A model generated the notes under the pieces. It was not told the DNA's origin. It saw only the letters and a program-made list of their open reading frames with translations, and did not search any database. From positions 1-52,041 of the forward strand of contig JAPLXQ010000013.1 of assembly GCA_026395995.1 (NCBI GenBank): a DNA stretch of 52,041 bases. Direction: 5' to 3'. How positions within the stretch are numbered: position 1 is the stretch's first letter; the number at the start of each line of letters is the position of its first letter. Origin of the DNA: Candidatus Nomurabacteria bacterium. Lineage in GTDB: Bacteria > Patescibacteriota > Minisyncoccia > Phycocordibacterales > UBA9973. The position numbers and the translations under genes were made by a program. Positions 14,721-52,041 of the stretch are shown here, piece by piece.

Positions 14721-14743
14721 TGTTCAACACCGAGTGTTGAACA
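14721..14743. repeat. REP-like palindrome, copy 1
   Basis: TGTTCAACAC-CGA-GTGTTGAACA, 27 bp upstream of the RAYT gene. Confidence 0.92.
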
Positions 14744-14770
14744 ATTTTATAGTATTGATATAATTAAGTT

Positions 14771-15424
14771 ATGAGAAATATACAAATAAGTGTAGGTGAA
14801 TATTATCATATTTTAAATCGCGGAGTAAATAAACAAATAATATTTCACGACAAAAATGACTATTCACGTTTTTTATTTTTAATCCTTTATTTCCAATCCC
14901 CTGTTAATTTTCAAAACATAGGTCGGATATCAAAAGACATATTTGTTCAACACTCGGTGTTGAACATTGATAAAATTATAAAAGACAGATATGTTGAATT
15001 GATTTCATTTTGTCTTATGTCTAATCATTTTCATTTAATAGTTAAAGAAGAAGTAGAAGGTGGTATTTCTCAATACATGCAAAGAGTTTTAAATGCATAT
15101 ACAAAATATTTTAATAAAAAATACCAAAAAAGTGGTCATCTTTTTCAAGGACCATATAAGGCTATTCATATTATAGATGATACTTATTTATTACATCTAT
15201 CTGCTTATATTCATAGAAATCCTAGAGAAATAAAAGATTGGTTTAAAAAAGAAGAAGAATATCTTTGGTCAAGTTATCAAGATTTTATAAAAGAAAATCG
15301 CTGGAATAACCTATTAGTACCCAATATAATTCTTGAACAATTTAAAAACAAAGAAGATTATAAAAAATTTGTAAATACAAGTACTACAAAAATAATCGAA
15401 GATGAAATTATTTCTGAAATTTAA
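14771..15424 (+). CDS. REP-associated tyrosine transposase (RAYT, Y1 HUH family)
   Basis: YYHILNRGVNKQIIF, FCLMSNHFHL (HUH), HLFQGPYKA, YIHRNP and WSSY motifs; flanking palindromes. Confidence 0.93.
   Translation: MRNIQISVGEYYHILNRGVNKQIIFHDKNDYSRFLFLILYFQSPVNFQNIGRISKDIFVQHSVLNIDKIIKDRYVELISFCLMSNHFHLIVKEEVEGGISQYMQRVLNAYTKYFNKKYQKSGHLFQGPYKAIHIIDDTYLLHLSAYIHRNPREIKDWFKKEEEYLWSSYQDFIKENRWNNLLVPNIILEQFKNKEDYKKFVNTSTTKIIEDEIISEI
14944..14966. repeat. REP-like palindrome, copy 2, inside the RAYT CDS in reversed orientation
   Basis: TGTTCAACAC-TCG-GTGTTGAACA, translated within FVQHSVLNI. Confidence 0.92.
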
Positions 15425-15425
15425 T

Positions 15426-15448
15426 TGTTCAACACCGAGTGTTGAACA
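15426..15448. repeat. REP-like palindrome, copy 3
   Basis: Identical to copy 1; immediately after the RAYT stop codon. Confidence 0.92.
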
Positions 15449-15449
15449 A

Positions 15450-16634
15450 TTATTGATATTGTATAAAACTAGGTTGAGGTTGGAGTTTCATTACTTCTTC
15501 TGGGGTCATCATTCGTTTCTTTTCTTGTTGTAAGTCATTTTTATAAAATAATTTAAAACCGGTAAATTGAACTGGTTGCATTTGGATAAAATATTTATAC
15601 GTTCCCTTTTTCTTTTCCATTCCTCCCCAGCCATCCATATCCATCACCATCTGGACTTCAGGAAGTGGTTTAATGTTTTTATAATTCGTGACCATTTTTT
15701 CTGTAAAACGATGTACGATTAAAATCTTTGGAGTTAAGTTATTTTCTTTCACAAGCTTAGCTAAATATTCCGCAGCATAATTCACATCAGTAGCATCAAA
15801 AGTACCAATTACTTTTCCTGGAGCCTTCCCTGTCTTCATAGAAAATTCTGGATCAATAGCGAGGTGAACTTCCGGCATTTTTAAATATTTTTCAAGCAAA
15901 GGTAATTCTGTTTGCAAATTACTCAAACCAACTTGAATATCTAAAATAACAATTCCATTTACTTTTTTTGCTAAAGCAATAGCAATATCTGTCTGTTTAT
16001 CAGGCATTCGAAAACGATACTTTCCATCACTTCCAGCACTTCCTTGCGCTGTAATAGCAATATAGTCAATCGCTGGAATCACTGGAGTCGTCGGATCAGC
16101 TTGTCTCCACTTTTCCATTTCTGTATTTAATTTTGATATCATTTCAACTTCTGGATACTCTCCTAATACTCCCATTTTTTTAGAATAAAAATTACCATAA
16201 TAAGCAATAATTCTATTAAAAGGTAAAAGTGCCCCAGAATTTGGATAAACAGCTTTCACAGGCCAAATATTAGGCTTGGGAACTGGAATAGGCTTAACTA
16301 CTGCTGGCTTTATTGGGATTTTTCCAGTAGTACTTTTTGTATCTGTTTTTTTTACAACGACAGGAGCAGCCACTACCGGCTTTGGTATTGGATAATTAGC
16401 TAATTGTTTCAATTTTAAATCATAAGCTACAGTATCTAGCGGAATAATTTTAACTTCTGGTACTATTTCATTTTCGACTAAAGTATTATCTTTAATTTTT
16501 GGTTCTACATCAGCTTGACTGTATTTTGAAGGAAAAATATCTCCAATATAAAAAGTTCCTAAAATAATTAGAACAGAAAAAATGACCAATGAGAGTAGTC
16601 GTACTTTACTAAATTGTTTGAAAAACTTATTCAT
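15450..16634 (-). CDS. Membrane-anchored conserved hypothetical protein with a Pro/Lys-rich linker and an enzyme-like domain
   Basis: N-terminal TM; RIIAYYG, DIQVG, HLAIDPEF, LIVHRF, MDGWG and GFKLFY blocks. Confidence 0.8.
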   Translation of the reverse strand: MNKFFKQFSKVRLLSLVIFSVLIILGTFYIGDIFPSKYSQADVEPKIKDNTLVENEIVPEVKIIPLDTVAYDLKLKQLANYPIPKPVVAAPVVVKKTDTKSTTGKIPIKPAVVKPIPVPKPNIWPVKAVYPNSGALLPFNRIIAYYGNFYSKKMGVLGEYPEVEMISKLNTEMEKWRQADPTTPVIPAIDYIAITAQGSAGSDGKYRFRMPDKQTDIAIALAKKVNGIVILDIQVGLSNLQTELPLLEKYLKMPEVHLAIDPEFSMKTGKAPGKVIGTFDATDVNYAAEYLAKLVKENNLTPKILIVHRFTEKMVTNYKNIKPLPEVQMVMDMDGWGGMEKKKGTYKYFIQMQPVQFTGFKLFYKNDLQQEKKRMMTPEEVMKLQPQPSFIQYQ

Positions 16635-40231: not shown

Positions 40232-40265
40232 GGGTCTAGTATATCAGAAAAATTAGGAAAATAAA

Positions 40266-40295
40266 AAAGCCTACAGAATAATTTCTGTAGGCTTT
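40266..40295. terminator. Intrinsic terminator of the 40313-40792 gene
   Basis: AAAGCCTACAGAA-taat-TTCTGTAGGCTTT. Confidence 0.75.
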
Positions 40296-40312
40296 AAATT
40301 TTAGAAAAAAAA

Positions 40313-40792
40313 TCAAGAAAGAAGTGTCGGCTTACCTAATTTTCTAAAAGCTCTCATACATATATCTGGCATATAATGCATGAATAAACCATACCATTCT
40401 TCTTCACCAACCCTTAAAATAAAATCTCCATTTAATTGTTGTATGTCTTGACGATAGTAATTATAGACATCCCAGTCATCACGTATTGGATAAGGAAAGA
40501 ATCTTCTTTTTTTTGTTTCTTTTTCTGATTCATTTTTAATATGTTCTGGTTTTGGAACTTCAATTTCAAAAAAAATTTCATTATCTCGTACACCCTTTCT
40601 GAATTTCTTGTATTGCTCTTTTGGTATATCTTTCAAAAGAGAATACTTAAAAGTAAACGGGTTACCATTAAAACCATCATTATTAAAAACTTGTAATGTT
40701 ATTATTAATTCCCATTTAACATTACCAAAATACGGGTGAATTTCTTCAACATTTTCTTGTTGAGAAATTATTCTTATGTCTTGTTTTTTCAT
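40313..40792 (-). CDS. Hypothetical protein
   Basis: 159-aa ORF with its own TTGACA promoter and terminator. Confidence 0.7.
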   Translation of the reverse strand: MKKQDIRIISQQENVEEIHPYFGNVKWELIITLQVFNNDGFNGNPFTFKYSLLKDIPKEQYKKFRKGVRDNEIFFEIEVPKPEHIKNESEKETKKRRFFPYPIRDDWDVYNYYRQDIQQLNGDFILRVGEEEWYGLFMHYMPDICMRAFRKLGKPTLLS

Positions 40793-40884
40793 TATTAAAA
40801 GTTTTTAAAAGTTAATATTTTGAATATCTAACCGTACAAATTGATCAATTATATCTTAACATTTTTAAAATACTTGTCAAACAT

Positions 40885-40920
40885 ACTCACCACTCATAGC
40901 GATAGCAAAGACTGGTGAGT
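40885..40920. repeat. 36-bp hairpin repeat downstream of the Cas2/PaaX-like gene
   Basis: ACTCACCA-CTCATAGCGATAGCAAAGAC-TGGTGAGT. Confidence 0.88.
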
Positions 40921-40936
40921 CATTATCTAGATTTAC

Positions 40937-41437
40937 TTATTTTTCAATCTTATACGCTTTCGCAAGTTTAAAAGTCTTAATACAATCTTTGAGCTTTATT
41001 GATTCCACATAATTCATAAAATTTTTTGGCAAAGGTGAAGGACCAACCCAGACACTTCGCTGGATCATTACATAATTAAACTTCTTTAAGTGGAAACGGA
41101 ACCATTCCCTCTCCCCCTTTTTGCCTTCTGGTATATCGAACATTACTATTAAATTCTTTGGTGTATCTTTTTTAAATGTATTGGAGAAGACCTGTAAGCT
41201 ATCTTGCTTCTTTTTTATATACTCTTTTCCCTTAGGGGTAATTTTTAAAAACTCGCCATCATTTTCAATAAACTTATTTTTCTTCATTCTTGAAATAGCA
41301 TTCGCAAATGATGTTTTGGAATATTTTTTATTAAAAACAGGCAAACCTAATAAATTTACAGCTACACCACCGTATCTTATATTAGACTTCATAAGTTCTT
41401 CTAGGAAACTTTCAATAATAGATTTATTATTTTTCAT
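40937..41437 (-). CDS. Stand-alone wHTH + Cas2-like (PaaX central domain) protein
   Basis: AISRMKKNKFIE...LKITPKGKEY (winged helix); IVMFDIPE..K..R...R..L.......IQRSVW (Cas2/PaaX-like). Start at ATG 41437. Confidence 0.85.
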   Translation of the reverse strand: MKNNKSIIESFLEELMKSNIRYGGVAVNLLGLPVFNKKYSKTSFANAISRMKKNKFIENDGEFLKITPKGKEYIKKKQDSLQVFSNTFKKDTPKNLIVMFDIPEGKKGEREWFRFHLKKFNYVMIQRSVWVGPSPLPKNFMNYVESIKLKDCIKTFKLAKAYKIEK

Positions 41438-41455
41438 ATATAAAGTATACCACAG

Positions 41456-41491
41456 ACTCACCAATTACTGCTATCGCTAGGAGTGGTGAGT
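41456..41491. repeat. Inverted copy of the 36-bp hairpin repeat, upstream of the Cas2/PaaX-like gene
   Basis: Reverse complement ACTCACCA-CTCCTAGCGATAGCAGTAAT-TGGTGAGT is 31/36 identical to 40885-40920. Confidence 0.88.
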
Positions 41492-41538
41492 CTAAAAAAA
41501 CTATAAATTAAAACAACAAATTTAAAAGGTTATTTATT

Positions 41539-41865
41539 TTAATCTTTCCATCCGCCCTTTTTACGAGCTTCTATTTCAAAAGAATTTTTAAAATATCCAT
41601 TTTTTATAAATTCATATAAATATTTAAAATAAAATTTAAATAATCCTAATTTTTGATATTGTGCCCAATGCACATCTTCGTGTTTTTCTTCCCATGCTTC
41701 AGTAACTTCTTTTCTAACAAAAATACCAAATGGTGGAATGGTCATTCCGCGTCGTGGTTTAGGTAACCATCTTACATATGTAATTTTTGGAATTCTTTTA
41801 ATATTTCTAAAATTAAAAGATAAAATAATTAAAAAAATTATCAGAAAAATAATAAGTATTTTCAT
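41539..41865 (-). CDS. Small exported HExxH protein (minimal zincin-like)
   Basis: N-terminal TM, GMTIPPFGIF, HEDVHWAQ, N.FEIEAR. Confidence 0.7.
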   Translation of the reverse strand: MKILIIFLIIFLIILSFNFRNIKRIPKITYVRWLPKPRRGMTIPPFGIFVRKEVTEAWEEKHEDVHWAQYQKLGLFKFYFKYLYEFIKNGYFKNSFEIEARKKGGWKD

Positions 41866-41872
41866 AAAAATA

Positions 41873-42961
41873 TTATAACATAATCAAAAAACTATTAACT
41901 ATTTTAGCTACTTCGTCCGCATTTTCTGCATCCATAAGTTTTACGCGGAGTTCTTTTGCGCCATCGAAACCGTTGCAATATGCTTTGTAGTGCTTTTTCA
42001 TAATAGCGAAATTTTTGTGTTTACCGAGTAATTCTTCAAAAAGTTTTGTATGCTCTACCATCACGCGCAATTTCTCAGAAATCGAGGGAACGTATTGAGA
42101 AAAGCCTTGCGCAGGCCGACTGGGCCGAGCAGAGAAAATTTTTAGTAAAAAATTATTCGTGCTTTTAGAAATATGTTCCTGAGATTTCTGTTCGCTAAAC
42201 AACCACGGATTCCCAAAAATAGCACGGCCGAGCATTGCTCCGTCGCAACCAGTTTCAAGACATTTTTTCTTTCCATCTTCTAAATTCAAAACATCACCAT
42301 TCCCTATTATCAAAGTCTCCGGTGCTATTTTATCTCGTAGCGCGACGACACTCGGCATCAAATCCCAATGCACTGGCACGAGAGACATTTCTTTCCTAGT
42401 TCTTAAATGCACAGTTAGTACTGCGACTCCTTCTTTTAAAATTTCTGGAATCCAAGTTTCAATTTCATTTTTATTGTAACCAATACGTGTCTTCACTGAT
42501 ATTGGAATATTCGGTGCACCTTCTTTCGCGGCACGGATTATTTCCCGAGCATGAGCTGGATCCTTCATACTAGAAGCTCCTGCGCCCTGTTTTTCAATAC
42601 TTTTATCAGGACAGCCCATATTGATATCTACACCATCAAAACCGAGCTCTGCGCAGAGTTTCGCAGCTTCACGGATGTTATCAGCATTTGAACCGAATAT
42701 TTGTGCCACTATTGGGTGTTCATTTTTCTCAAATTTCAAATCAATTAAAAGTTTCTCCCTAGCATCAGGATGTGCGAGGCCATCTGCTGATACGAACTCG
42801 GTCCAAAATACATCAGGCCCGCCACCTTCTTCTCCTGCCTGCGCAGGCAGGCCATGCCTAGAATATTTCGATATAATCTGACGAAAGGCGCAGTCTGTGA
42901 CATCTGCCATCGGAGCTAATACAAAAAATGGTTTCTTTAATTTTATCCAGAAATTATTCAT
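41873..42961 (-). CDS. dusB: tRNA-dihydrouridine synthase with two in-frame palindromic insertions
   Basis: LAPMADVTD, TEFVS, DINMGCP, SVKTRIG, VHLRT, GNGD and GRAIFGNPW motifs. Confidence 0.93.
   Translation of the reverse strand: MNNFWIKLKKPFFVLAPMADVTDCAFRQIISKYSRHGLPAQAGEEGGGPDVFWTEFVSADGLAHPDAREKLLIDLKFEKNEHPIVAQIFGSNADNIREAAKLCAELGFDGVDINMGCPDKSIEKQGAGASSMKDPAHAREIIRAAKEGAPNIPISVKTRIGYNKNEIETWIPEILKEGVAVLTVHLRTRKEMSLVPVHWDLMPSVVALRDKIAPETLIIGNGDVLNLEDGKKKCLETGCDGAMLGRAIFGNPWLFSEQKSQEHISKSTNNFLLKIFSARPSRPAQGFSQYVPSISEKLRVMVEHTKLFEELLGKHKNFAIMKKHYKAYCNGFDGAKELRVKLMDAENADEVAKIVNSFLIML
42076..42190. repeat. Imperfect palindromic element of about 115 bp inside dus
   Basis: Arms CAGAAATCgagGGAACgTATTgagAAAAGC / GCTTTTagaAATAtGTTCCtgaGATTTCTG; the reading frame stays open. 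Confidence 0.7.
42834..42851. repeat. Perfect 18-bp palindrome inside dus
   Basis: CCTGCCTGCGCAGGCAGG, six codons long, translated around LPAQAG. Confidence 0.8.
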
Positions 42962-51795: not shown

Positions 51796-51826
51796 AAACA
51801 GCTCTAGGTCTTGCCTAGAGCTGTTT
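51796..51826. repeat. REP-like palindrome over the stop codon of the second RAYT
   Basis: AAACAGCTCTAGG-tcttg-CCTAGAGCTGTTT. Confidence 0.65.
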
Positions 51827-52041
51827 ATAATCTAACCATGAAAAAATTTCATTATTAAAATCTTTAGTATTTGGGAAATAATTAGGAAATGATTCTTTGC
51901 TTATTATTTTCCCTTCAGTTCTATATATTCCAAAGTAATCTAAATAACTTGAATGTTCGTAACCTCTTAAGAAATCTAAGGTTTCTTTTTTGTTTCTAAT
52001 TCCCTTCTCTTTCCAATCTTTCTGAATTAACTTTACTGGAT
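51815..52041 (-). CDS. C-terminal part of a probable second RAYT transposase (truncated by the window edge; absent from the ORF track)
   Basis: Manual translation PVKLIQKDWKEKGIRNKKETLDFLRGYEHSSYLDYFG...WLDYKQL*, comparable to the NP...W....Y.WSSY.D tail of the 14771 RAYT. Confidence 0.7.
   Translation of the reverse strand, partial: PVKLIQKDWKEKGIRNKKETLDFLRGYEHSSYLDYFGIYRTEGKIISKESFPNYFPNTKDFNNEIFSWLDYKQL

What the first reader, a model, noticed from the sequence alone, without database searches (positions are those of the whole stretch)
40885..41491. Stand-alone wHTH-Cas2-like gene bracketed by inverted 36-bp hairpin repeats: candidate new mini-element or self-targeting module
Seen: a 607-bp unit with one 166-aa gene and two 31/36-identical repeats in inverted orientation, 18 bp before the ATG and 16 bp after the stop. 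Each repeat has 8-bp arms (ACTCACCA/TGGTGAGT) around a 20-nt core with conserved TAGCGATAGCA. The upstream copy covers the -35 region of the gene's own promoter, and the downstream copy abuts the TTGACA of the next gene. There is no cas1, CRISPR array, paa gene or obvious target-site duplication. Established: the Cas2/VapD/PaaX ferredoxin-like fold includes nucleases, and wHTH domains bind DNA. Inference: the layout mirrors the RAYT-REP unit in this window, suggesting the protein recognises and perhaps mobilises its own flanking hairpins, or loops DNA between two operators.
Basis: partly seen in the sequence, partly recalled or inferred. Interest (0 to 1): 0.8.

Follow-up and report, generated by a model that had tools for sequence, protein, structure and literature searches.

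The report
Cas2-like gene bracketed by dispersed palindromes
A small DNA-binding protein with a Cas2-like domain, from a tiny-genome bacterium, sits between two copies of a 36-base palindrome that is also scattered through the genome, much as REP repeats surround their transposase, but with a different kind of protein.

Summary
A 166-aa gene (minus strand, 40937-41437) lies between two 36-bp hairpin repeats (40885-40920, 41456-41491). They are 31/36 identical as inverted copies, 18 nt before the ATG and 16 nt after the stop. The protein is a winged-helix domain plus a Cas2/PaaX_M-like domain. The genome has no cas1, no PaaA/PaaC-family gene, and no CRISPR-like array by a crude scan.

The pattern holds across the family. 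In 21 distinct loci at least 42% identical to the protein, 19 carry a GC(K/C)AT(M/G)GC core on both flanks, with locus-specific self-complementary arms. Some distant subfamilies carry other palindromes.

The hairpin is a dispersed, REP-like element:
- The 0.76-Mb genome holds about 16 copies, some in operon spacers and some in frame inside genes, including all three DGR-type reverse-transcriptase copies.
- One copy is present or absent among close relatives.
- The unit is missing between dus and dnaX in 14 of 15 genus relatives.

The same genome has nine RAYT genes, most of them flanked by matching REP-like palindromes in the same way.

Best reading (0.5): the protein binds the conserved core, represses its own leaderless promoter, and is the protein partner of this palindrome family. 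A role in spreading the palindromes is inferred, not shown. Main rival (0.3): an ordinary autoregulated PaaX-like repressor.

The parts
40937..41437 (-). Gene for the 166-aa wHTH + Cas2-like (PaaX_M) protein P0001; the stop codon is 40937-40939.
   Evidence: PaaX_M 6.2e-12, Cas2 3e-6. (PADLOC Cas2 3.4e-8, WH_III-A 4.4e-7). (two-domain model).
41456..41491 (.). Upstream 36-bp hairpin repeat; with 10-bp arms it spans 41454-41493. It covers about -19 to -54 relative to the ATG, and its core is centred near -36.
   Evidence: A strain-level homology break falls exactly at its outer edge, 41492.
40885..40920 (.). Downstream 36-bp hairpin repeat, 16 nt after the stop. It abuts the -35 of the next gene's promoter-like site.
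41444..41452 (-). TGgTATACT, an extended -10-like element that ends 6 nt before the ATG. This implies a leaderless mRNA.
   Evidence: Read from the sequence. TAnnnT starts at -16..-10 in 18 of 21 homolog loci, typically as TGnTATAnT + 6 nt + ATG. The consensus scan did not call it, because it has no -35.
40853..40880 (-). Promoter-like site TTGACA-16-TAAGAT (10/12, TG before the -10) for ORF159, immediately after the downstream hairpin.
   Evidence: The scan as a whole was not above the shuffles (11 found against 10.7 expected).
40313..40792 (-). ORF159, a variable cargo gene with no known family. Related strains and genomes have other genes in this slot.
41539..41865 (-). ORF108, a small membrane-anchored protein with an HEDVH motif. 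It is missing at this place in the two closest genomes and in a co-occurring strain.
   Evidence: (phrog_37302 5.2e-7; protease phrog 7.8e-4).
40266..40295 (-). Terminator-like hairpin (13-bp stem plus T run) that closes the inserted block before dnaX.

Best explanation
The gene encodes a sequence-specific DNA-binding protein. It has a variable N-terminal winged helix and a nearly invariant C-terminal Cas2/PaaX_M-like domain, which probably serves as a dimerisation and possibly a nuclease module. I propose that it recognises the conserved, near-palindromic centre (consensus about CTGC-K-AT-M-GCAG; here TAGCGATAGCA) of the two hairpin repeats around it. The upstream repeat lies over the -35/spacer region of a leaderless, extended -10 promoter, so binding would repress the gene itself. 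The second copy sits after the stop, directly before the next gene's promoter. Gene plus palindromes form a REP-RAYT-like association. The same palindrome family, with a conserved centre and freely varying but self-complementary arms, is dispersed through the genome, varies in presence between close relatives, and travels with this protein family across genomes. What is shown: the anatomy, the family-wide association, the dispersal and indel polymorphism of the hairpins, the non-fixed synteny, and the conserved promoter geometry. What is inferred: that the protein binds the core, that it represses, and, more weakly, that it helps maintain or spread the palindromes.
For: (1) Family-wide association. 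Of 21 distinct loci at least 42% identical to P0001 with both flanks available, 18 have an upstream-versus-reverse-complemented-downstream alignment with z >= 4. Nineteen have an intact GC(K/C)AT(M/G)GC core on both sides; L044 and L009 each have one degenerate side. The core occurs 59 times in 760 kb against 15.6 expected.
(2) Background. Only 15 of 375 ORFs of 100-260 aa reach a flank score of 16 or more. The ones I identified among them are RAYT genes, members of this family, a DUF559 gene and a PemK-like gene.
(3) Subfamily and palindrome co-vary. The own C11 copy and L016 (about 34% identical to P0001) are both flanked by GACGGCCGTC palindromes. L095 has two copies flanked by GACGATCGT. 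Short forms without the wHTH core (own C8:10444-10803, L014, L015, L093) are flanked by 20-30-bp perfect palindromes of the type ACGC(T/C)AT(A/G)GCGT.
(4) Conserved geometry. The order palindrome, then TGnTATAnT, then 6 nt, then ATG recurs: TAnnnT starts at -16..-10 in 18 of 21 loci.
(5) Dispersal. The genome holds 4 copies with the same arms and 16 hairpins with the core. Of 144 core occurrences in the genome plus homolog loci, 41 have 6 or more consecutive mirrored Watson-Crick pairs, where my rough estimate expects about 1. Arm sequences vary, with 3-4 pair types per position.
(6) Polymorphism. The pcrA-rsmA spacer carries the hairpin in this genome and in G057, with the loop inverted (33/36 as reverse complement), but not in G058. 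Arms at the orthologous dus-dnaX unit differ: ACTCACCA here; ACTCACCA and ATCTCA in L085; ATCTCAC in L086.
(7) Solo hairpin arm types match units in the same or sister genomes. ACTCACCA matches this unit. ATGTTAACA matches the C8 pseudogene unit, which is intact in G057. ACTTCGCA matches unit L087 of G058.
(8) Not fixed. In 14 of 15 informative genus relatives, dus and dnaX are 24-107 nt apart with no unit.
(9) Selfish-element signature. There are 1-13 matches per genome in 24 of 24 genus members. Three of 6 own copies are damaged: one frameshifted, one with an in-frame TGA, one N-truncated.
(10) Fold: wHTH plus Cas2. D101 and the Cas2-like half are nearly invariant, while the wHTH half is variable.
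Against: No binding, cleavage or movement has been observed; every link between protein and palindrome is by association. Arms change between orthologous units while the protein stays 86-95% identical, so the arms are probably not read by the protein, and their self-complementarity could be kept by hairpin self-correction alone. Across 40 relatives the count of the core pattern is only weakly linked to having a close homolog: mean 5.5 with and 3.7 without, and G021 has 10 with no close homolog. Nine RAYT genes in the same genome could be what moves small palindromes. Palindromes of several unrelated types, including ones like RAYT REPs, collect at the same reverse-transcriptase loop, so dispersal may not be specific to this protein. 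In miaA the hairpin replaces native codons with no change in length, which does not look like simple insertion. The Cas2 fold has no known transposase chemistry. Of 15 loci under 35% identity, 9 show no flanking repeat. The fold matches have middling Z (under 8), and the promoter is read by eye rather than called by the scan.
Confidence: 0.5

Rival explanations
1. This is an ordinary autoregulated PaaX-like repressor. A dimer binds a palindromic operator over its own promoter and a second operator that controls or insulates the downstream cargo gene. The dispersed hairpins are either further operators or unrelated REP-like DNA moved by other means, such as the RAYTs or recombination.
For: PaaX_M domain and wHTH. 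The best whole-chain structural match is E. coli PaaX. The operator-over-promoter geometry is conserved. The downstream copy sits at the next gene's promoter-like site. Nine RAYTs are available as mobilisers. The arms are apparently not read by the protein.
Against: Nearly every member also has a copy after the stop, whatever the neighbouring gene is. Short forms that lack the wHTH core are still flanked by perfect palindromes. Up to 13 copies per roughly 0.6-Mb genome, with frequent pseudogenes, is unusual for a regulator. Solo copies lie inside ORFs and in operon spacers 8-21 nt before ATGs with no -10. No paa genes or PaaX_C domain were found.
Confidence: 0.3
2. This is an autonomous mini-transposon. 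The two hairpins are terminal inverted repeats, the Cas2-like protein is its transposase, and solo hairpins are footprints or one-ended products.
For: The layout is like a very small IS, with a promoter next to one end. The unit is present or absent at loci across the genus, and a second locus differs between G058 and this genome. Homology breaks fall exactly at the hairpin edge.
Against: No near-identical second unit exists; the closest paralog is 63% identical. No target-site duplication was seen. The unit sits at the same locus in the three closest genomes while its neighbours change. Hairpins inside essential ORFs cannot be footprints of a 600-bp insertion unless excision is exact. No transposase fold is present.
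Confidence: 0.07
3. This is a VapD/Cas2-like toxin or defence nuclease fused to its own DNA-binding autorepressor. The palindromes are only its operators, and its patchy multi-copy distribution reflects addiction or defence-island dynamics.
For: Cas2/VapD fold with an invariant Asp. Distribution is patchy, with pseudogenes. It sits in a hypervariable slot beside changing cargo genes. The PADLOC Cas2 and WH_III-A models match.
Against: There is no conserved partner gene. This does not explain hairpins dispersed in housekeeping operons and ORFs. No defence-system model other than Cas2, WH_III-A and a weak MkoB hit matched.
Confidence: 0.08
4. The flanking is incidental. Small palindromes of many kinds accumulate next to recently acquired genes in these genomes, and this family is simply often recently acquired.
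For: PemK-like, NYN and DUF559 genes are also bracketed by palindromes. Palindromes of many types collect in one reverse-transcriptase loop.
Against: The same core accompanies the same protein subfamily in many genomes, and different cores accompany other subfamilies. The spacing to the ATG and the -10 is fixed.
Confidence: 0.05

Closest known systems
REP-RAYT systems (REP-associated tyrosine transposases and their repetitive extragenic palindromes)
   Same: A small gene is bracketed by inverted copies of a cognate palindrome. The same palindrome is dispersed elsewhere in the genome. Different gene copies go with different palindromes. RAYT genes flanked by matching palindromes lie in this same genome.
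   Different: The protein has no HUH/Y1 domain; it is wHTH plus a Cas2-like fold. The palindromes have a conserved 12-20-nt centre and variable stems, whereas the RAYT-associated REPs here have conserved stems and 1-5-nt loops. Copy number is low, about 16. The genes are multi-copy, patchy and often broken. Copies occur in frame inside ORFs.
PaaX, the repressor of phenylacetate catabolism (PDB 8a39)
   Same: wHTH followed by a Cas2-like middle domain (PF20803 6.2e-12; Z 7.3 over 140 residues). It is likely a dimeric repressor binding a palindromic operator.
   Different: About half the size. There is no PaaX_C and no hit to the PaaX N-terminal model at E <= 1. No PaaA/PaaC-family gene was found in the genome. 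It has two flanking sites and dispersed copies.
Cas2 of CRISPR adaptation modules
   Same: Ferredoxin-like fold (Z 6.5-7.1). The Cas2 models of Pfam, NCBIfam and PADLOC score above or near their cut-offs. An invariant Asp lies in the first strand. It is physically linked to roughly 36-bp partly palindromic repeats.
   Different: No cas1 anywhere in the genome. No array of repeats and spacers. It has an extra wHTH domain. The repeats are single, flank the gene and are dispersed.
VapD / BPSL1038-type stand-alone Cas2-fold nucleases
   Same: A stand-alone Cas2-fold protein outside CRISPR. VapD chains appear among the weak Foldseek hits. For BPSL1038 I saw only the title and the start of the abstract of PMC10491678 in a search listing.
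   Different: There is no antitoxin-like neighbour. It is fused to a wHTH and associated with palindromes.
Rickettsia palindromic elements (recalled from memory, no call)
   Same: Small palindromic repeats are found in frame inside protein-coding genes.
   Different: As I recall, those are about 100-150 bp and have no associated protein. Here the elements are 20-40 bp and are tied to a protein family.

Membership tests
Cas2 (CRISPR adaptation) | Cas2 sequence profile or fold | tested here: met
   PF09827 27.8 bits (cut-off 23.8). TIGR01573 26.2 bits (cut-off 24.5). PADLOC Cas2 3.4e-8. Z 6.5-7.1 to several Cas2 chains.
Cas2 (CRISPR adaptation) | Encoded with cas1 | tested here: not met
   PF01867 gave no match at E <= 0.01 in the 98%-complete genome.
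Cas2 (CRISPR adaptation) | Adjacent CRISPR array | tested here: not met
   The window holds only 2 copies of the repeat, 535 nt apart. A crude exact-word scan of the genome found no repeat-spacer array, only a 3-unit tandem at C5 about 26.2 kb, which I did not examine.
Cas2 (CRISPR adaptation) | Metal-binding Asp at the end of strand 1 | tested here: inconclusive
   D101 (FDIPE) is invariant in 37 of 37 sequences and lies at the start of the Cas2 match (residue 96 = profile position 3). I did not inspect residue-by-residue equivalence.
PaaX regulators | PaaX_M (Cas2-like) middle domain | tested here: met
   PF20803 45.9 bits (cut-off 24).
PaaX regulators | PaaX N-terminal and PaaX_C domains | tested here: not met
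   Neither model is listed at E <= 1. The protein ends with the Cas2-like domain.
PaaX regulators | Linked to paa catabolic genes | tested here: not met
   PaaA_PaaC (PF05138) was not found in the genome. The neighbours are dus, dnaX and two orphan ORFs.
REP-RAYT | Gene flanked by inverted cognate palindromes that are also dispersed in the genome | tested here: met
REP-RAYT | HUH/Y1 tyrosine transposase | tested here: not met
   P0001 has no Y1_Tnp hit. The nine Y1_Tnp genes of the genome are other genes.
Insertion sequence with terminal inverted repeats | Target-site duplication and multiple near-identical copies of the whole unit | tested here: not met
   No shared flanks or duplications at the 4 same-arm copies. 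The closest paralogous unit is 63% identical.
Type II toxin-antitoxin (VapXD-like) | Conserved adjacent partner gene | tested here: not met
   ORF108 and ORF159 have no homolog near 19 other family loci or elsewhere in the genome. The downstream gene differs in all three closest genomes.

The most novel reading that the evidence does not exclude
A Cas2-fold protein, fused to a winged helix, is the dedicated partner of a family of roughly 36-bp palindromic repeats outside any CRISPR system, and acts on them by nicking, maintaining or copying. That would make it a second, non-HUH solution to the REP-RAYT lifestyle. It would also be a living example of a Cas2-like protein natively coupled to repeat DNA, which bears on how Cas2 and repeats came together at the origin of CRISPR adaptation.
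Probability: 0.15. Interest if true: 0.9.

Novelty: new variant of a known kind. Interest (0 to 1): 0.68.

Why it matters
Public annotation calls this family 'Cas2', 'PaaX' or 'hypothetical'. It has more than a thousand members in Nomurabacteria and other Patescibacteria. The data here show that it is neither a CRISPR component nor a phenylacetate regulator. It is a palindrome-associated gene with a fixed architecture.

If the protein acts on its palindromes, this is a new protein class for REP-like elements and a possible relative of the step that tied Cas2 to repeats. Even if it is only a repressor, two points stand. These reduced genomes carry several families of small palindromes that enter coding regions in frame. 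And one loop of DGR-type reverse transcriptases collects them. Both affect gene calling, protein-family alignments and assembly in these lineages.

The hypothesis can be tested directly with a 166-aa protein and 36-nt oligonucleotides.

Tried and rejected
1. My first reading of the copy in the C8 reverse-transcriptase gene was that a 37-nt insertion broke the frame. I dropped it. The hairpin itself is in frame, as in the two other RT copies, and the frameshift lies in the A8 run just after it.

2. I first took the palindromes TGTGAAGG..CCTTCACA near the distant C2 paralog as gene-specific repeats of that paralog. They belong to the adjacent RAYT gene.

3. Co-occurrence of the core pattern YWGCKATMGCWR with close homologs across 40 relatives gave only a weak trend, so I do not use it as support.

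4. Homodimer prediction gave no verdict: score 0.14 against a mark of 0.42.

5. Sequencing runs listed no RNA holder, so nothing can be said on expression or on the transcription start.

6. Foldseek against the PDB gave no match with E <= 0.001. A profile search of PDB sequences gave nothing significant; the best was S19e at 0.016.

7. The consensus promoter scan was not above its shuffles and did not call the gene's own promoter. The extended -10 is my reading, supported by conservation.

8. PHROGs has no family for P0001.

9. Literature. Four full-text searches covered these term sets: Cas2-like / winged helix / PaaX; palindromic elements / in-frame / Candidate Phyla Radiation; orphan or stand-alone Cas2; RAYT / REPIN / Patescibacteria. 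None found a description of this family or these palindromes. I read only listings and starts of abstracts, opened no paper and saw no supplements, so a description in a subscription journal or a supplement cannot be excluded.

11. Gene names used for neighbours (dus, dnaX, ftsQ, serS, pcrA/uvrD, rsmA, miaA, atpF, gatA/gatC, amidase-like, MFS-like) are my reading of the translations and come from no family search. RVT_1, bAvd, PemK, NYN, DUF559, Y1_Tnp and PaaX_M are.

12. My gene calls for the whole genome are a crude longest-ORF caller.

13. Relatives are not independent samples, and loci were chosen as the best matches per genome.
Full report
WHAT IS THERE

The window is contig C12 of a 760,693-bp, 13-contig, 33% G+C genome (98% complete). 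Titles of near-identical public records call it Candidatus Nomurabacteria.

On the minus strand, 40937-41437 encodes a 166-aa protein, P0001. It lies between two 36-bp repeats, ACTCACCA-N20-TGGTGAGT, at 40885-40920 and 41456-41491. The repeats are 31/36 identical when one is reverse-complemented. They lie 18 nt before the ATG and 16 nt after the stop. The pattern is far from chance: 2 found against 0.01 expected. Both copies fold as hairpins better than shuffles, z -4.1 to -5.3.

THE PROTEIN

Pfam places residues 96-159 in PaaX_M (6.2e-12) and CRISPR_Cas2 (3e-6), with only sub-threshold wHTH hits for residues 40-80. NCBIfam's Cas2 model is just over its cut-off. PADLOC matches Cas2 (3.4e-8) and the winged-helix model WH_III-A (4.4e-7).

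An AlphaFold model built from 37 homologs (pLDDT 82) has two domains. Residues 1-81 align with PadR, AphA and IdeR winged helices (Z 7.3-7.9). Residues 93-166 align with Cas2 chains (Z 6.5-7.1). E. coli PaaX aligns over 140 residues (Z 7.3, rmsd 10.5). These Z values are middling, and Foldseek alone gave nothing at E <= 0.001.

In the alignment the Cas2-like half is nearly invariant (D101, E109-W112, Q126-P137), while the winged-helix half varies.

The genome has no Cas1, no PaaA/PaaC and, by a crude scan, no CRISPR-like array. The common database names 'Cas2' and 'PaaX' are therefore both misleading as statements of function.

THE PATTERN IS A PROPERTY OF THE FAMILY

The protein has more than 1192 relatives in the large protein collection. 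In the genus, 24 of 24 sampled genomes have 1-13 matches, and 6 of 16 genomes from other families of the order have some.

This genome has six PaaX_M-type copies. Three are damaged: C8:1329-1786 is frameshifted, C11 has an in-frame TGA, and C8:10444-10803 lacks the winged-helix core.

I took every locus I held that is at least 42% identical to P0001 and has both flanks. That gave 21 distinct loci, including the window's own; I dropped L088, a duplicate of L008, and three fragments of 26-105 aa.
- In 18 of 21, the best alignment between the upstream flank and the reverse complement of the downstream flank has z >= 4.
- In 19 of 21, both sides carry an intact core of the form GC(K/C)AT(M/G)GC. 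L044 and L009 each have one degenerate side.

Around the core lie arms that are self-complementary but differ from locus to locus: ACTCACCA, ATCTCAC, ACTTCGCAC, ATACATAC, TTGTTA, ATGACACAC and others.

Among loci under 35% identity, 4 of 15 have strong flanking repeats with other cores: GACGGCCGTC in the own C11 copy and in L016, and GACGATCGT twice in L095. Two are marginal and 9 show nothing.

As background, 15 of 375 ORFs of 100-260 aa in this genome reach a flank score of 16 or more. The ones I identified among them are RAYT genes, members of this family, a DUF559 gene and a PemK-like gene.

PROMOTER GEOMETRY

Between the upstream hairpin and the ATG the sequence reads CTGTGGTATACTTTATAT. 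This is an extended -10-like TGgTATACT that ends 6 nt before the ATG, and it implies a leaderless transcript. The same arrangement (palindrome, TGnTATAnT, about 6 nt, ATG) recurs in the homologs: TAnnnT starts at -16..-10 in 18 of 21 loci, and the three misses look like wrong start-codon choices on my part.

The hairpin therefore covers about -19 to -54, with its conserved centre near -36. A bound protein there would meet RNA polymerase. The consensus scan did not call this promoter, because it has no -35, and the scan as a whole was not above its shuffles. It did call TTGACA-16-TAAGAT immediately after the downstream hairpin, in front of ORF159.

THE HAIRPIN IS A DISPERSED, REP-LIKE ELEMENT

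With the same arms there are four copies in the genome: the two here, one between the ends of the pcrA-like and rsmA-like genes on C10, and one inside a reverse-transcriptase gene on C8.

With the same core and any self-complementary arms I found 16 hairpins. One of them, C13:12198 with 5-bp arms, is probably chance. The 12-nt core pattern occurs 20 times against 2 for its reversed control.

Of 144 core occurrences in the genome and the homolog loci, 41 have at least six consecutive mirrored Watson-Crick pairs outside the core, where I estimate about one by chance. Arm positions show 3-4 different pair types. The percent-paired figures in that call are inflated by the selection step; the count of 41 of 144 is not.

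Solo copies sit in short spacers inside operons, before the atpF-like gene and between the gatC- and gatA-like genes. They also sit in frame inside ORFs, always read as ..(S/L)AIA(E/K)..: in a miaA-like gene, in an amidase-like gene, and in all three reverse-transcriptase copies.

POLYMORPHISM AND SYNTENY

Two very close genomes were found: G057, whose ortholog is 95% identical (L085), and G058, at 86% (L086). Both have the unit at the same place between dus and dnaX. Three things differ, however.
- ORF108 is absent in both.
- The gene after the downstream hairpin is different in all three genomes: ORF159, a 157-aa ORF, or a 309-aa ORF.
- The hairpin arms differ while sharing CTCAC..GTGAG.

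Contigs of co-occurring strains in three metagenome runs of one study show the same mosaic. One joint skips ORF108 and breaks exactly at the outer edge of the upstream hairpin (41492 to 41921). Other joints replace ORF159 with 733 or 1040 other letters. One joint skips the whole 1657 nt, with the content between unknown.

In the wider genus, 14 of 15 informative genomes have dus and dnaX 24-107 nt apart with no unit. The fifteenth has an unrelated 251-aa ORF there.

A second unit in G058 (L087, 69% identical, arms ACTTCGCAC) lies beside DNA orthologous to 48.2-51.8 kb of this window. The window has no unit at that place. Yet this genome keeps a solo hairpin with those arms at C13:14327.

The solo hairpin in the pcrA-rsmA spacer is present here and in G057, with its loop inverted (33/36 as reverse complement), and absent in G058. 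The amidase-gene hairpin is conserved at 31/32 in G057 although the surrounding codons have diverged. The miaA hairpin replaces native codons without any length change, and I cannot explain this.

CONTEXT: A GENOME FULL OF SMALL PALINDROMES

The genome has nine Y1_Tnp (RAYT-type) genes. Matching REP-like palindromes with short loops flank six of them, and several carry a further copy inside the gene. One of the flanked genes is the unit in this window at 14721-15452. PemK-like, NYN and DUF559 genes are bracketed by GC-rich palindromes too.

The reverse transcriptases are of the DGR type: RVT_1 beside a bAvd-like gene. In 24 RT sequences from this genome and its relatives, the loop between ..SF and KGLPLGN carries an in-frame palindromic insert in 11 and none in 13. 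The inserts are of at least four kinds, including this hairpin, its GCCATGGC variant, the 20-bp ATCTACGC..GTAGAT type and GC-rich types. That loop is a general sink for palindromes, which weakens any claim that dispersal is specific to one protein.

HOW IT MOST LIKELY WORKS

The combination of features below points to specific recognition of the palindrome centre by the protein and to autoregulation. I put that part at about 0.8.
- A variable DNA-binding half sits next to an invariant Cas2-like half.
- The palindromic centre is conserved across the subfamily.
- Different centres go with different subfamilies.
- The position over a conserved leaderless promoter is fixed.

Whether the protein also maintains or spreads the palindromes, as RAYTs are thought to do for REPs, is open.

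In favour of spreading:
- There is a copy after the stop whatever the neighbour is.
- Short forms without a winged helix are still bracketed by palindromes.
- Solo hairpins carry the arm types of units in the same or sister genomes.
- The family has a multi-copy, decaying, patchy distribution.

Against spreading:
- The Cas2 fold has no known chemistry for transposition.
- RAYTs are present in the same genome.
- The co-occurrence signal is weak.
- The miaA case does not look like insertion.

The whole statement gets 0.5. The plain-repressor rival gets 0.3. The smaller rivals (mini-transposon, toxin or defence module, incidental flanking) share the rest.

COMPARISON AND NOVELTY

The system works like REP-RAYT but fails its defining protein feature. 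It resembles PaaX in fold but lacks PaaX_C and the paa context. It resembles Cas2 in fold but lacks cas1 and an array. Four full-text searches found no description of it (listings only).

I rate it a new variant of a known kind: a palindrome-associated gene with a new protein class. The bolder reading is that a Cas2-fold protein acts on repeat DNA outside CRISPR, at a probability of about 0.15.

Noticed in passing
L055/L078 (own C13:160665-161792, C8:48633-49722), own C1:7812-8465, and RT loci L056-L082 of relatives: One loop of DGR-type reverse transcriptases, between ..SF and KGLPLGN, carries in-frame palindromic inserts of at least four unrelated kinds in 11 of 24 sequences and none in 13. 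It is a hot spot or sink for small palindromes.
   Followed up: partly
L001 1537-1548 (own C8:49288-49299): The C8 reverse-transcriptase gene is out of frame because of an A8 run just after the hairpin. One A fewer would restore ..GELKKGLPLGN... This could be a real pseudogene, an assembly error or slippage.
   Followed up: no
L004 about 1820-1870 (own C10, rsmA-like gene): A different, GC-rich palindrome (CCCCTTGGCGAAGGGG, read as PLAKGEG) lies in frame in the rsmA-like gene. G058 lacks it and G057 has another, longer insert there. Copies of this element occur at many loci in all three genomes.
   Followed up: partly
window 14721-15452, and eight other loci of the genome: There are nine RAYT-type (Y1_Tnp) genes in a 0.76-Mb genome. 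Matching short-loop palindromes flank six of them, and several have a further copy about 200 nt inside the ORF.
   Followed up: partly
own C5:11715-13283 (L120) and C11:37693-38325 (L121): PemK/MazF-like, NYN-domain and DUF559 genes are each bracketed by GC-rich palindromes: CCCCATAGGC..GCCTATGGGG and CCTCCCCTTACGAAGGGGAGG.
   Followed up: partly
L042 1708-1741 (own C9:5707-5740, miaA-like gene): The hairpin replaces 12 native codons with no length change relative to G057 and G058, and keeps the L, D, I, E and I residues. This is not a simple insertion, and I have no explanation.
   Followed up: partly
window 40232-41872: The dus-dnaX junction is a hypervariable slot. There are three different downstream cargo genes in three close genomes, an unrelated 251-aa ORF in G045, and nothing in 14 other genus members.
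   Followed up: yes
window 41539-41865: ORF108 has an N-terminal membrane helix and an HEDVH motif. It matches a phage family of unknown function (phrog_37302, 5.2e-7) and weakly a protease phrog.
   Followed up: no
window 51796-52041: The contig ends about 240 nt beyond a palindrome (AGCTCTAGG-N5-CCTAGAGCT), at the place where the relative G058 has a second wHTH-Cas2 unit. The relative's contig also starts there, so repeats may be breaking both assemblies.
   Followed up: no
own C11:48100-48609 (L047): A distant paralog has a single in-frame TGA (..IRN*LRVQ..) but is otherwise intact and is flanked by perfect GACGGCCGTC palindromes.
   Followed up: no
protein P0119: Some public gene calls start inside the upstream hairpin, giving false N-terminal extensions such as MLTYSAIAEFVN...
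   Followed up: no
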